From the IMG/VR virus record IMGVR_UViG_2534681938_000031: a stretch of DNA of 10,931 bases. One strand, given 5' to 3'. Position numbers: made by a program. Shown here one piece after another: positions 1 to 3,000 of the stretch. The DNA is from a virus (Duplodnaviria > Heunggongvirae > Uroviricota > Caudoviricetes). How positions within the stretch are numbered: the stretch's first letter is position 1; each line of letters starts with the position of its first letter.

Positions 1-3000
1 ATGAGCAGAGCACTTAACAAACTGAGCGATACACAGCTGAGGAAAATCAACGGCACACCCGCCCAAAAAACAGCCTTTCTTAATGACGGTGGAAACCTGA
101 GCGTCAGGCATTCAACCAGTGGCCTTTTAACCTGGTATTTCACTTACAGGGCCGGAACGGGAAGGGGGGCACCACCGGAACGCATTAAGCTGGGAAATTA
201 TCCTGATCTGAGCCTGAAATCAGCCAGGGAAAAAGCCGCCCAGTGTCGCGCATGGCTGGCAGAGGGGAAAAATCCACGTCATGAGCTTAATTACACCGTA
301 CAGGAAGCGTTAAAGCCGGTAACGGTTGGCGATGCGCTCACCTACTGGCTTGAGTCGTACGCAAAGGAAAACCGCGTGGATTATGCCGCCCTGAAAAAGC
401 GCCTTAATAATCACGTAATACAGCACATTGGTGCTATGCCGCTGGATAAATGCGAGCTACGGCACTGGCTGGCCTGTTTTGACCAGGTGGCAAAGCGAAC
501 GCCTGTTACTGCCGGATTCTTGCTACAGACGTGCAAACAGGCGCTTAAGTTCTGCCGGAGGCGGCGCTATGCAATCAGCAACGTTCTTGATGATATGAGT
601 GTGGCGGACGTTGGGAAAAAACCGGATATAAGCGAGCGTGTCTTAAGCACCAAAGAACTGGGCGAATTATTGCAGGCACTGGACAAAAAAATATTCTCCC
701 CCTACTACATCGCGTTAATCCGCCTCCTGATTGTGTTCGGATGCCGGACGGTAGAACTGAGGTTATCGGAGATCAGCGAGTGGGATTTTACCGAAATGCT
801 CTGGACCGTTCCGAAGGAGCACAGCAAAACGAAGGTAGCCATATTCCGGCCTATACCGGAAGCAATACTGCCGTTCATCACGCAGCTGGTGGAGCAGAAC
901 AGGCACACGGGCTTATTGCTGGGGGAAGTGAAACAGGAGGCCAGCGTATCGCAGTATGGAAGATTAGCGCACAGGAGGCTTAATCACCCTCACTGGTCAC
1001 TGCATGACATCCGGCGCACCTTTACAACCATGCTGAACGATTTAGGCGTTGATCCGCATGTCGTGGAGCAGCTTACAGGCCACCAGATGCCAGGAATGCA
1101 GCGAGTTTATAATCATTCCCGTTATCTGGATGCGAAACGCAATGCGCTGGATATGTGGACGGAGCGGTTAGGGATACTGGCGGGAACACATGAAAACGTA
1201 ACCACGCTACCAGTAGCCAGAAGAAAATAATTTTTTTCGTGTTTTTTCAGTATGCGCATACTGGATATGCGAACAGATACAACGTGCAACAATGAGCAAC
1301 AATGTGGAACAACTACGAACAAGAGGCGAAAAAGCGTACGGATTTATAAGTAGCTGATTTTTAATGTGTTACTGGTTTTTTATACACTAGCGAATCACTC
1401 TTTAAAGAGCGAGAAAAAAGGCATGGAACAATATTTTATGCCTTTGTATTAACATGAATTTAAAAGATTTTATTCTTACTTTTTCATTTTCTGTAAATCA
1501 TACATCCTCAGTATTTGCCATTCATCACTCTAGCGGGAACAATACGACACAATAAGACACCTGATGACTCTTTAAGAAACGAAAGGGGGCAATAGTGTTA
1601 AGCACTGATCGGTTTATACGTGAAAAAGAATGCGAAAAACTAACCGGCCTTAGCCGTACGTGTCGCTACCGCCTGGAAAAGGCCGGACAATTCCCATCAC
1701 GTCGTAAACTTGGCGGTCGTTCCGTTGGCTGGTCTTTATCCGAGGTTCTGGCCTGGAAGGATAGCTGCAAGGCAGTTCATTAATCACGCTGGCGGCACAC
1801 AGCCGCCACACATCAATCATCTGAACACAGAGCTATAACCATGAAGATTGAATATACGCCAGAACGTGGGCGGGGATTCGTTCGCCCTGGTGAGACTGGA
1901 AAACCACAAAATTGGGGTTTTTCAGGCATAAAAAAAGCGGCCCCGAAATGGAGCCGCCTTTCTGAACAGATAACCCGCTGCGCCTTATGTGTATATGATC
2001 CCAAACATAAGCACGGGGATGATAGCCGCTATCAGGCTGGTGGGCAATGCTATCAGTCTGGTTCAGTTCGTTGCCATACCTGCAATGGGCGCGTTTCCCT
2101 GTACTCTTTAAGGAATTGCTCAAGGGCAAAAGCACATGGCGCGAATCTTTCTGATTCATGCTCTATCTTTCTGCGCCGTCTTTTCCGTGCCGGTGATAAT
2201 GTTTTGGTCAATTCTTTATCGGTCATTGTGTTGTCCTGCATAGCAATGCGCCGTAATACCTCACACCACGGCGCTGATAGTTTTTATCCTTTGGGTTCTA
2301 TGCCGCGTTGCTGTAATTCTTTGCGGAGAACGCGTTTAATCCAAGTGGCTAAAGATGTGTCGCCATCGGCCTTAGCAGCTTCTTCTAGCTGCGCTCTGAA
2401 GTCTTCCGGTAATCGCATTTGGTATGGAGGCGAACGTTTTTCTAATGGTGTTGACATGGTAATTACCCTTTATTGCTATACCTACATGGTAATTACCATT
2501 GTACTTGCCATTACACAAAAATCAACGCCCCGCAGTGCTGGGAACACATACGGGGCGTCTAACCAACAACGTAAACTAGGAGCCGTTATGGTTGCCGTAA
2601 ATCATATACCACACCTTGTACACACACAAACGGCCTTTGTGTGGCGTTTTCTGGCACTGAGTGCCGGAGAATCTCAAATCATCCACGTAACCGCCTGGAC
2701 GGAACGCGAAGCGCGTAACCGTTGCCCGTCCGGTTGTGTTGCTGTATTTGCCGCCCGTATTCGTCAGGAGGTGCGCCATGATTAATCTGTCACTTACTGA
2801 CCTTAACCGCATTCAGTTTCGTGAGAAATTCACAGGGCAGCTACTGGTCAATGTGGATAAAGGTCGCGTGGTGTGTAATTACCACTTACCAGATGAAGCA
2901 ATTGTCGCCACAAGGGAATCATTACAGGAAATCACAAAACGTGCCGGAATGATTAACACGAATATTCAGGGGATGCTTTATGCACAATAAAACCACACCG

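What the first reader, a model, noticed from the sequence alone, without database searches (positions are those of the whole stretch)
2284..2497. Arc-like RHH repressor with twin palindromic operators over a divergent promoter (candidate lysogeny switch)
A 57-aa Arc/Mnt-like protein, missed by the ORF track, is read leftward from an ATG embedded in the first of two ACATGGTAATTACC repeats, each carrying the perfect palindrome GGTAATTACC. The plus-strand consensus -35 TTGACA overlaps operator 1 and operator 2 sits at the predicted +1 of the rightward early operon. This geometry fits one small repressor both autoregulating and silencing the replication operon. Master repressors of PICI-type satellites are usually larger, so a minimal RHH switch is worth noting, and a derepression route by a helper protein is implied.
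Basis: partly seen in the sequence, partly recalled or inferred. Interest (0 to 1): 0.55.

Follow-up and report, generated by a model that had tools for sequence, protein, structure and literature searches.

The report
Hidden repressor switch in phage satellite
A 57-amino-acid DNA-binding protein gene that RefSeq leaves unannotated in E. coli O157:H7 sits, with two matching binding sites and an antisense RNA, on the start of the replication operon of a phage satellite, and this may be the repressor that this class of satellites was thought to lack.

Summary

The window is the O157:H7 allele of the EcCICFT073-type phage-inducible chromosomal island (PICI) at the roxA/phoQ site.

- **The ORF is a real gene.** Homologues keep a length of about 57 aa across many gammaproteobacterial genera. 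Selection favours the sense strand. It matches PHROG "Arc-like repressor", and its predicted fold matches almost only ribbon-helix-helix (RHH) proteins.
- **The palindromes behave as its operators.** In 79 related loci their sequence changes together with the protein's DNA-reading strand. A Shigella relative has swapped only the protein's N-terminal two-thirds plus the operators.
- **The rightward promoter is conserved.** Its -35 is an exact TTGACA in 60 of 64 loci. One operator lies in the spacer and the other at +1.
- **A third part was missed.** A conserved antisense RNA of about 78 nt covers the ribosome-binding site of the first rightward gene. It is not in Rfam.

No binding or repression was tested. 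Published work makes AlpA the inducer, so a helper-protein antirepressor is unsupported. O157:H7 carries an A-to-G change at the key -10 base of the rightward promoter. This is a new variant of a P22 immI-like switch.

The parts
2284..2457 (-). Gene for a 57-aa ribbon-helix-helix (Arc/Mnt-like) protein, the candidate repressor. The predicted beta-strand is PYQMRLP (residues 11-17). Predicted helices span residues 18-31 and 36-50. The C-terminal tail RGIEPKG is nearly invariant.
   Evidence: - ORF and translation.
- 93 homologues, mostly exactly 57 aa, in many genera.
- pN/pS is 0.20 on the sense strand against 0.39 on the antisense strand.
- PHROG 228 'Arc-like repressor', E=1.5e-6.
- The exact sequence is in public databases only as 'hypothetical protein'.
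2454..2470 (.). Proximal operator O1. This is repeat ACATGGTAATTACCCTT with the core palindrome GGTAATTACC at 2458-2467. It lies in the spacer of the rightward promoter. It also covers the Shine-Dalgarno-to-ATG stretch of the repressor gene.
   Evidence: The same position and a co-varying sequence are seen in 79 related loci.
2484..2500 (.). Distal operator O2. This is repeat ACATGGTAATTACCATT with the 14-bp perfect palindrome ATGGTAATTACCAT at 2486-2499. It covers the predicted +1 of the rightward promoter. It also overlaps the last bases of the leftward -10 and the leftward +1.
   Evidence: Spacing to O1 is 27-35 bp, mostly 30-31, in related loci.
2451..2479 (+). Predicted rightward early promoter P_right: -35 TTGACA (2451-2456), 17-nt spacer, -10 TGCTAT (2474-2479), +1 near 2486. 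It drives the Icd-like gene and the replication operon.
   Evidence: - The -35 is an exact TTGACA in 60 of 64 distinct relatives, and the -10 averages 4.4 of 6 matches.
- In the window the -10 is weak. A2475G replaces the TACTAT found in O55:H7 and other E. coli.
- The consensus scan did not list this promoter.
2498..2525 (-). Predicted leftward promoter P_left of the repressor gene: -35 TTGATT (2525-2520), 16-nt spacer, -10 TACAAT (2503-2498), +1 near 2491.
   Evidence: Promoter scan. A TAnnAT hexamer abuts the distal operator in class-1 relatives: TACAAT, TAAAAT or TATAAT.
2514..2593 (-). Candidate cis-antisense small RNA of about 78 nt. Its 5' end lies near 2593. A 5' stem-loop shows the anti-Shine-Dalgarno CUCCU in its loop. 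The terminator hairpin is at 2558-2525 and is followed by a U-tract. The RNA is complementary to the start codon, Shine-Dalgarno and leader of the Icd-like gene.
   Evidence: - The leftward strand folds to -33.5 kcal/mol (z -4.3). The rightward strand folds to -22.7 (z -2.3).
- In 49 sequences 96.2% of cells are paired, and 14 of 21 pairs show compensatory change. None of 500 shuffles matched this.
- There are 139 G-U cells against 9 A-C cells, so the structure is kept on the leftward strand only.
- No Rfam family matches.
2601..2629 (-). Predicted promoter of the antisense RNA: -35 TTGTGT (2629-2624), 17-nt spacer, -10 TATGAT (2606-2601). It lies inside codons 5-14 of the Icd-like gene.
   Evidence: At a fixed distance from the start codon the leftward strand keeps T (95%), A (95%), nnn, T (96%) in 56 distinct loci. 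The encoded N-terminal peptides differ widely. The -35 is only weakly conserved.
2588..2785 (+). Icd-like gene (65 aa), the first gene of the rightward operon. It is the presumed target of both the repressor (transcription) and the antisense RNA (translation).
   Evidence: NCBIfam phage_ICD_like, 64.8 bits. RefSeq annotation.
2053..2241 (-). Second gene of the leftward operon. It is 62 aa from the first ATG, but more likely 57 aa starting at M6 (2226). Function unknown. The conserved motif is ERFAPCAFxLxxFLKxY.
   Evidence: - PHROG 21027, E=3e-16.
- A nearly identical 57-aa gene sits downstream of a different regulator in EcCICFT073.
- It is absent from most related loci.
1926..1961 (-). Intrinsic terminator of the leftward operon: GGCGGC...GCCGC followed by UUUUUUU on the minus strand. 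It lies between that operon and the convergent alpA gene.
   Evidence: Read directly from the sequence. Terminator-like sub-threshold Rfam matches fall on the minus strand.
1841..2785 (+). A 314-aa open frame antisense to the repressor gene. It is not a gene over 1841-2587. RefSeq calls 1841-2434 an 'Icd-like' pseudogene, and that call masks the 57-aa gene.
   Evidence: - Only residues 266-309 match the Icd-like model.
- RefSeq flags it as a pseudogene.
- The frame crosses both promoters, both operators and a terminator.
- Stop codons appear in this frame in 5 of 26 relatives.

Best explanation
The 57-aa protein is a ribbon-helix-helix repressor of the Arc/Mnt type.

**Inferred mechanism (not shown by experiment).**
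1. Dimers of the protein bind the two GGTAATTACC palindromes, whose centres are 30 bp apart.
2. The proximal site fills the spacer of the rightward early promoter. The distal site covers that promoter's start point. Together they shut off transcription of the Icd-like gene and the replication operon while the island is integrated.
3. The distal site also overlaps the -10 and start point of the repressor's own promoter, so the protein limits its own synthesis.
4. The two promoters are predicted to overlap face-to-face. RNA polymerase at one therefore excludes the other.
5. A separately transcribed antisense RNA of about 78 nt pairs with the ribosome-binding site of the Icd-like gene. It acts as a second, translational lock. 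Its terminator abuts the repressor promoter.

**Module and induction.** The repressor's N-terminal two-thirds and its operators form an exchangeable immunity cassette. Induction is most likely driven by the island's activator AlpA, which published work shows to be necessary and sufficient. AlpA-dependent rightward transcription may run through, or otherwise override, this module. How the lock is released is unknown.
For: **The gene is real.**
- 93 homologues keep a length of about 57 aa from E. coli to Oceanimonas, Gilliamella, Pasteurella, Aeromonas and Xenorhabdus.
- pN/pS is 0.20 on the sense strand and 0.39 on the antisense strand.

**It is an RHH protein.**
- PHROG 228 'Arc-like repressor', E=1.5e-6.
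- Profile alignment puts the family's Q-Y-Q-M-R-L-P strand in register with Arc Q-F-N-L-R-W-P and Mnt H-F-N-F-R-M-P.
- AlphaFold predicts two helices.

**The palindromes are its operators.**
- They exceed chance.
- In 79 loci the palindrome changes with the beta-strand class: SPQYQMRL with GGTAATTACC, TDQYQIRL with TGTAATTACA, SPQFPMRL with GGTATATACC, NPPFQFRL with GTGTAATTACAC.
- Shigella locus L060 is about 100% identical to the window on both sides, including alpA and the Icd-like gene. It is only about 50% identical over 2328-2520. That stretch holds exactly the protein's N-terminal two-thirds plus the operators and promoters.

**The promoters are conserved.**

**The gene usually stands alone.** It faces an Icd-like gene, with int and alpA on its 3' side.

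**EcCICFT073 shows the same layout with other parts.** This prototype island at the same site has an unrelated small YlcI/YnfO-family gene in the same place. It has twin GTGGGCCACACCT repeats flanking the -10 of TTGACG-17-ATATAG.

**The antisense RNA is supported by**.
Against: - Nothing was tested at the bench. Binding, repression, transcription start sites and the RNA are all predictions.
- The protein falls below the curated cut-offs of Pfam Arc (14.3 against 20.4 bits) and NCBIfam YlcI_YnfO_N (18.7 against 30 bits).
- The monomer model shows no beta-strand.
- Published data show that AlpA over-expression alone induces EcCICFT073, and that alpA mutants are not induced (PMC6092414 and 10.1101/2022.09.08.507074). 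This repressor therefore cannot be the only control, and it may not be the point at which the helper acts.
- In this window the rightward -10 is only TGCTAT, so the promoter may be nearly inactive here.
- The EcCICFT073 protein is not detectably similar in sequence (E=0.25).
Confidence: 0.68

Rival explanations
1. The protein binds the palindromes but acts mainly as an immunity or incompatibility determinant and a basal silencer. It would block the early operon of incoming related satellites and damp leaky expression. The real on/off decision would be made elsewhere, by AlpA. The module would then not be the lysogeny switch.
For: - AlpA is necessary and sufficient for induction in the published systems (PMC6092414).
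- The cassette is swapped between otherwise identical islands, as phage immunity regions are.
- Some islands carry two cassettes in tandem.
Against: - This reading is not exclusive of the main explanation.
- The operators sit on the island's own early promoter in every locus examined.
- No experiment separates the two roles.
Confidence: 0.3
2. The protein is only an autoregulator of its own small operon. It might be the antitoxin of a toxin-antitoxin pair with the downstream 57/62-aa gene, or the regulator of cargo genes. It would have no role in the rightward operon.
For: - RHH proteins are common antitoxins.
- Some database sources name homologues 'HicB family antitoxin'.
- A second small gene follows in the window.
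Against: - The downstream gene is absent from most related loci. Many loci have no downstream ORF at all, and in Xenorhabdus loci alpA ends about 170 nt after the stop codon.
- The same downstream gene follows an unrelated regulator in EcCICFT073.
- There is no match to defence or toxin models.
- A consensus -35 for the opposite direction is held within the first three codons in 60 of 64 loci.
Confidence: 0.08
3. The 57-aa ORF is a shadow of the 314-aa plus-strand frame, and the palindromes serve another factor such as AlpA, the Icd-like protein or a host protein.
For: - The plus-strand frame is open across the region and shares third codon positions with the minus-strand ORF.
- RefSeq places a pseudogene there.
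Against: - Only the last 65 codons of the plus frame match any family.
- The frame runs through promoters, operators and a terminator, and it is broken in relatives.
- The minus-strand protein has a conserved length, an RHH pattern and lower pN/pS.
- In locus L060 alpA and the Icd-like gene are 97-98% identical to the window while the palindromes differ. The specificity partner must therefore lie inside the swapped segment.
Confidence: 0.03

Closest known systems
Phage P22 immI region: Mnt and Arc repressors, the overlapping Pant/Pmnt promoters and sar antisense RNA (from my own knowledge of the literature)
   Same: - Small RHH repressors act on palindromic operators placed between the -35 and -10, and at the start point, of an early promoter that overlaps an oppositely oriented repressor promoter.
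- An antisense RNA covers the ribosome-binding site of a downstream gene.
- The beta-strand aligns in register with those of Arc and Mnt.
   Different: - One protein appears to occupy both operator positions, where P22 uses two proteins.
- The controlled operon starts with an Icd-like gene and carries replication genes, not an antirepressor.
- Sequence similarity is marginal.
- The antisense RNA does not match Rfam sar.
- The host element is a satellite, not a phage.
Phage P1/P7 immI (C4 RNA, icd, ant) and P4 CI RNA immunity
   Same: The first gene controlled is an Icd-like gene. A small RNA targets its translation start region.
   Different: - C4 and CI are processed from the sense transcript. 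[quoted passage not shown]
- There is no Rfam C4 or isrK match in the window.
- Pasteurella locus L030 has true C4 and isrK elements further downstream as well.
- P1 and P4 have no RHH partner at this place.
Stl/Rpr master repressors of Gram-positive PICIs (SaPIs)
   Same: A repressor gene is transcribed away from the excision/replication operon and sits next to the integration module (layout described in PMC6092414).
   Different: - There is no sequence or fold relation. Stl proteins are much larger helix-turn-helix proteins.
- Stl is released by binding a helper-phage protein. No such partner is indicated here.
- Induction in Gram-negative islands runs through AlpA.
EcCICFT073, the prototype Gram-negative PICI
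   Same: - Same chromosomal site (roxA/phoQ) and same order: int, alpA, leftward small genes, Icd-like gene, DUF4222, replication genes, capsid genes.
- Same downstream 57-aa gene.
- Same hairpin and leader upstream of the Icd-like gene.
- Twin repeats flank the rightward -10.
   Different: - The regulator gene there is a 59-aa YlcI/YnfO-family protein with no significant similarity. Its repeats are GTGGGCCACACCT.
- The published description lists no repressor for this island.
CopG of plasmid pMV158 and AmrZ of Pseudomonas (RHH transcription factors)
   Different: CopG is co-transcribed with its target gene. AmrZ is a chromosomal global regulator. Neither is tied to an antisense RNA or to a satellite.

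Membership tests
Ribbon-helix-helix (Arc/MetJ) superfamily | An N-terminal beta-strand with alternating polar residues, followed by two helices joined by a G-x-S/T/N turn. | tested here: met
   - The pattern YQMRLP, then EDFRAQLEEAAKADG, then DTS, then LATWIKRVLRKEL is seen in 23 aligned sequences.
- Predicted helices span 18-31 and 36-50.
- The strand aligns in register with Arc and Mnt.
Ribbon-helix-helix (Arc/MetJ) superfamily | Fold similarity to solved RHH structures. | tested here: met
- Foldseek top hits are likewise RHH, but with E>1.
- Scores are low, as expected for about 40 aligned residues.
Ribbon-helix-helix (Arc/MetJ) superfamily | A homodimer whose paired strands read the DNA major groove. 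| not testable with these tools
   Only a monomer could be modelled, and its N-terminus is unstructured.
Pfam Arc (PF03869) | Score at or above the gathering cut-off of 20.4 bits. | tested here: not met
   14.3 bits, E=0.038. PHROG 228 'Arc-like repressor' does match at E=1.5e-6.
NCBIfam YlcI/YnfO family (NF041551) | Score at or above the cut-off of 30 bits. | tested here: not met
   18.7 bits, E=0.0014. An E. coli relative of the class-4 (NPPFQFRL) subtype, which is about 65% identical to the window protein, is named YlcI/YnfO by RefSeq. The window protein is therefore a divergent relative.
Repressor-operator pair (phage immunity type) | Operator sequence changes together with the DNA-reading part of the protein. 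| tested here: met
   There are four main strand/palindrome classes across 79 loci. A cassette is swapped in locus L060 between identical flanks.
Repressor-operator pair (phage immunity type) | The protein binds the sites and lowers transcription. | not testable with these tools
   This needs a gel-shift or footprint experiment and reporter assays.
Gram-negative PICI (EcCICFT073 type) | int and alpA followed by a co-directional replication module, at a known PICI attachment site, with some capsid or packaging genes. | tested here: met
   The element lies between roxA and phoQ, as EcCICFT073 does, and has the same gene order. Induction by a helper phage was not tested.
Toxin-antitoxin antitoxin (RHH type) | A conserved, adjacent toxin gene. 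| tested here: not met
   The downstream gene is missing or different in most loci. There is no toxin or defence model match.
Rfam antisense or immunity RNAs (C4, isrK, sar) | A covariance-model match. | tested here: not met
   There is no match in the window at the gathering score, or at E<=10 over 1800-3000. C4 and isrK are found only in L030, at another place.

The most novel reading that the evidence does not exclude
Gram-negative PICIs, including the prototype EcCICFT073, do have a master silencing module that has been overlooked. It would be an exchangeable immunity cassette made of three parts:
- a tiny RHH repressor;
- twin operators on overlapping face-to-face promoters;
- an un-catalogued cis-antisense RNA against the first early gene.

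AlpA would induce the island by overriding this lock. This would answer the published question of whether these islands have a global repressor, and why they seemed to differ from Gram-positive PICIs.
Probability: 0.4. Interest if true: 0.8.

Novelty: new variant of a known kind. Interest (0 to 1): 0.64.

Why it matters
[quoted passage not shown] It calls the difference from Gram-positive islands "a mystery" (PMC6092414). Later surveys list these small genes only as accessory genes, under names such as 'YlcI/YnfO' or 'HicB' (PMC13612085).

A conserved repressor-operator-antisense RNA module on the early promoter gives that question a concrete, testable candidate. The region matches about 15% of complete E. 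coli genomes (811 of 5426), and relatives occur in many other genera. It also predicts immunity groups among satellites, because the cassette is swapped between otherwise identical islands.

There is a practical point as well. RefSeq masks the gene in O157:H7 with an antisense pseudogene call. The O157:H7 copy also carries a probable promoter-down mutation, which may bear on whether this island can still be mobilised.

Tried and rejected
- **Rfam.** I searched the whole window at the gathering score, 1800-3000 at E<=10, and 14 related loci. No family covers the operator region or the antisense RNA. The sub-threshold hits at 1876-2027 only reflect a terminator.
- **PDB by sequence.** The profile found only designed helical repeats and no RHH protein. 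This was uninformative.
- **Defence models.** PADLOC gave nothing for the four small proteins.
- **Plus-strand 314-aa ORF as the real gene.** Rejected.
- **Toxin-antitoxin reading.** Rejected because there is no conserved partner.
- **Hairpin 2525-2558 as a leader structure of the rightward mRNA.** Rejected in favour of a leftward terminator. The leftward strand is more stable in 59 of 67 loci, and G-U pairs are almost all on that strand.
- **Homology between the window protein and the EcCICFT073 59-aa protein.** Not supported (E=0.25). Only the layout is shared.
- **Literature.** Searches found no paper describing an RHH repressor or this antisense RNA in Gram-negative PICIs. The library lacks most subscription journals, so this absence is not proof.
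Full report
**What the window is.** Bases 1900-3000 are 100% identical to many E. coli O157:H7 chromosomes, and they match 1347 of 5426 complete E. coli genomes. In strain TR01 the element lies between roxA and phoQ. It reads, left to right:
- integrase (window 1-1230);
- a 62-aa helix-turn-helix regulator at 1595-1783, in the position of alpA;
- an 'Icd-like' pseudogene call (1841-2434);
- an Icd-like gene (2588-2785);
- small hypothetical genes, DUF4222, a RepA-type helicase, SSB and PerC;
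- major capsid, decoration and small terminase genes.

The prototype Gram-negative phage-inducible chromosomal island (PICI), EcCICFT073, occupies the same site in CFT073 with the same gene order. The window is therefore an O157:H7 allele of that island type. It is not the capsid-forming EcCIEDL933.

**The observation.** Each repeat contains the palindrome GGTAATTACC, and the second extends to the 14-bp palindrome ATGGTAATTACCAT. With at most one mismatch the 10-mer occurs three times in 10.9 kb against 0.23 expected, and none of 200 shuffles reached three. TTGACA lies at 2451-2456. Seventeen bases later comes TGCTAT (2474-2479), which places +1 near 2486, inside repeat 2.

**Is the ORF a gene?** A 314-aa frame is open on the opposite strand (1841-2785) and shares third codon positions with the ORF. 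Third-position patterns therefore cannot decide between the two.

Other evidence does decide:
- Only residues 266-309 of the long frame match any family (Icd-like). RefSeq treats its first part as a pseudogene.
- The long frame runs through two promoters, both palindromes and a terminator.
- The 57-aa protein has 93 homologous clusters. Nearly all are exactly 56-58 aa. They come from Escherichia, Salmonella, Enterobacter, Yersinia, Pantoea, Serratia, Xenorhabdus, Photorhabdus, Gilliamella, Pasteurella, Aeromonas and Oceanimonas.
- Substitutions among the homologues are conservative, and 19 positions are invariant.
- Over 26 distinct coding sequences pN/pS is 0.20 in the sense frame and 0.39 in the antisense frame. 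Median dN/dS is 0.11 against 0.26. The antisense frame acquires stop codons in five sequences.
- The exact sequence is in public databases on more than 1000 contigs, always as 'hypothetical protein'.

**What kind of protein.** The sequence shows the ribbon-helix-helix (RHH) pattern: a strand (YQMRLP), a helix, a G-D-T-S turn and a second helix.
- Pfam Arc (14.3 bits) and NCBIfam YlcI_YnfO_N (18.7 bits) are both below their cut-offs.
- PHROG 228 'Arc-like repressor' matches at E=1.5e-6 over residues 6-55.
By established knowledge those Arc and Mnt positions hold the base-contacting residues.
- AlphaFold gives two confident helices and an unstructured N-terminus. That is expected for a monomer of a fold whose sheet forms only in the dimer.

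**Are the palindromes its operators?** A scan of one genome per species returned 79 loci. In them the gene is preceded by two related palindromes 27-35 bp apart, mostly 30-31. The proximal one ends at the start codon. The palindrome sequence follows the class of the protein's strand:

| Strand class | Palindrome |
|---|---|
| SPQYQMRL, SPPYQMRL | GGTAATTACC |
| TDQYQIRL | TGTAATTACA |
| SPQFPMRL | GGTATATACC |
| NPPFQFRL | (A)TGTGTAATTACACAT |

The sharpest case is Shigella locus L060. It is about 100% identical to the window over 1570-2050, over 2250-2327 (the last 14 codons of the gene) and from 2560 onward. It is only about 50% identical from 2328 to 2520. That stretch holds the N-terminal two-thirds of the protein, both operators and both promoters. 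Its alpA and Icd-like genes are 97-98% identical to the window's. The factor that matches the palindromes must therefore be encoded inside the swapped piece. This is the pattern of a phage immunity region.

**Promoters.**
- *Rightward.* The -35 is an exact TTGACA in 60 of 64 distinct loci. These bases are the reverse of codons 1-3 (ATG TCA Axx), and serine is always TCA. A -10-like hexamer lies 16-18 nt further on and averages 4.4 of 6 matches. The proximal operator thus fills the spacer and the distal operator covers +1.
- *Leftward.* The scan finds TTGATT-16-TACAAT at 2525..2498. In class-1 relatives a TAnnAT hexamer abuts the distal operator.
- *Arrangement.* Predicted start points are about 2486 (rightward) and about 2491 (leftward). 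The promoters therefore overlap face-to-face, and each lies in the other's transcribed region. These are consensus predictions only.

**Context.**
- In 36 of 79 loci an integrase related to the window's lies on the 3' side in opposite orientation. In 26 loci an alpA relative does too.
- The gene mostly stands alone. The 62-aa ORF that follows in the window (2241..2053, probably starting at M6) matches PHROG 21027. It is missing from most loci, which carry nothing or other small cargo there. This argues against a toxin-antitoxin pair. It fits a repressor operon that carries accessory genes.
- A strong terminator (1926-1961, minus strand) ends the operon in front of the convergent alpA.

**EcCICFT073.** Between alpA and the Icd-like gene the prototype has a leftward 59-aa 'YlcI/YnfO family' gene, followed by a nearly identical copy of the window's 57-aa downstream gene. 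Its rightward promoter TTGACG-17-ATATAG is flanked by twin GTGGGCCACACCT repeats, one in the spacer and one at +1. The protein is not detectably similar to the window's (E=0.25). The shared feature is therefore layout, not sequence. Some E. coli and Photorhabdus islands carry two such cassettes in tandem.

**A third component.** Between the leftward promoter and the Icd-like start lies a hairpin (2525-2558) that is conserved in all classes.
- It is more stable on the leftward strand in 59 of 67 loci.
- On an alignment of 49 sequences the consensus has three helices, and 96.2% of cells are paired.
- Fourteen of 21 pairs show compensatory change. None of 500 shuffles reached the observed values, and shifted registers give at most 54% pairing.
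- There are 139 G-U cells against 9 A-C cells, so the complementary strand would pair in only 83.5% of cells. The structure therefore belongs to a leftward RNA.
- The hairpin is followed by a U-tract, so it is an intrinsic terminator.
- No leftward gene lies upstream of it. Instead, at a fixed distance from the Icd-like start codon, the leftward strand keeps T (95%), A (95%), nnn, T (96%) in 56 loci, although the encoded peptides differ widely. This is the signature of a -10 element. In the window it is TATGAT at 2606-2601, with TTGTGT 17 nt upstream.
- The predicted RNA (about 2593 to 2516) folds to -33.5 kcal/mol (z -4.3). The sense strand folds to -22.7.
- Its 5' loop presents CUCCU opposite the Shine-Dalgarno sequence.
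- It matches no Rfam family.
- A Pasteurella locus has genuine C4 and isrK elements elsewhere in the operon.

**Mechanism proposed.**
- *Shown by sequence comparison:* a real RHH gene; operators that co-evolve with it; a conserved rightward promoter overlapped by both operators; a structured antisense RNA.
- *Inferred:* the protein represses the early (Icd-like/replication) operon and itself; the RNA blocks translation of the first early gene; the cassette sets immunity specificity.
- *Open:* how the lock is released.

Published experiments show that AlpA is required for induction, and that it suffices when over-produced (PMC6092414; 10.1101/2022.09.08.507074). AlpA-driven rightward transcription entering this module is one possibility, but I have no evidence for it.

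**Comparison with known systems.**
- It works most like the immI region of phage P22, which has small RHH repressors, overlapping promoters and an antisense RNA.
- It shares its first target gene with the P1/P7 immI region.
- It differs in using one protein at both operator positions, in having a cis-antisense RNA of a new type, and in residing in a satellite.
- It is unrelated to the Stl repressors of Gram-positive islands.

[quoted passage not shown] A survey of such islands describes this zone in terms of Bro-family proteins and C4/isrK RNAs (PMC10111431). A recent survey lists 'YlcI/YnfO' and 'HicB' only as accessory genes (PMC13612085). I found no description of this module, within the limits of an open-access library. 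I rate it a new variant of a known kind.

**This particular copy.** O157:H7 has TGCTAT where O55:H7 and other E. coli with the identical protein have TACTAT. The change removes the A at the most conserved -10 position. The early promoter of this island is therefore probably weakened.

Noticed in passing
window 2514-2629 (minus strand): A conserved, structured antisense RNA of about 78 nt lies opposite the ribosome-binding site and start of the Icd-like gene. It has its own -10 signature and terminator. It is absent from Rfam.
   Followed up: yes
window 2475: The -10 of the rightward promoter reads TGCTAT in O157:H7. It reads TACTAT in O55:H7 DEC5E and in two other E. coli that carry the identical repressor. 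This is a single A-to-G change at the most conserved -10 position, and it may have weakened the island's early promoter.
   Followed up: partly
window 1841-2434: RefSeq annotates an 'Icd-like' pseudogene on the plus strand here, and no gene on the minus strand. The 57-aa gene is therefore missing from O157:H7 annotations. It is called 'hypothetical protein' in other E. coli (L081 3001-3174).
   Followed up: yes
window 2874-2883: A third near-copy of the operator core (TGTAATTACC, one mismatch) lies inside the 70-aa gene at 2778-2990. This could be chance.
   Followed up: no
L081 3001-3984; L082 3001-3864; L034-L038 about 3600-5160: Some E. coli and Photorhabdus islands carry two regulator cassettes in tandem between alpA and the Icd-like gene. 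In the E. coli cases the cassettes are of different types.
   Followed up: partly
window 2284-2304 (protein residues 51-57): The C-terminal tail RGIEPKG lies beyond the predicted second helix. It is nearly invariant across all operator-specificity classes, and it sits at the recombination breakpoint of the swapped cassette. It might be a docking or oligomerisation motif.
   Followed up: no
L061, L063, L066 about 5150-5310: In several loci the gene just downstream of the regulator encodes a 47-53-aa peptide with a lipoprotein-like signal (for example MKKIIILAAVLIVAAFLLKSC). This suggests cargo expressed together with the repressor.
   Followed up: no
window 1841-1900; L085 34660-35140: The start of the plus-strand frame (MKIEYTPERGRGFVRP) resembles the start of an unannotated plus-strand ORF after alpA in EcCICFT073. 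That ORF looks like a Bro-N-type protein. In the window only a short remnant precedes the terminator.
   Followed up: no
window 2485-2490 (minus strand): The distal operator places an AUG immediately followed by UAG in the predicted 5' leader of the repressor mRNA, forming a start-stop pair.
   Followed up: no
L030 4507-4723: A Pasteurella testudinis island has Rfam C4 and isrK elements in the rightward operon in addition to the leftward antisense RNA module. It therefore carries two RNA-based controls.
   Followed up: partly
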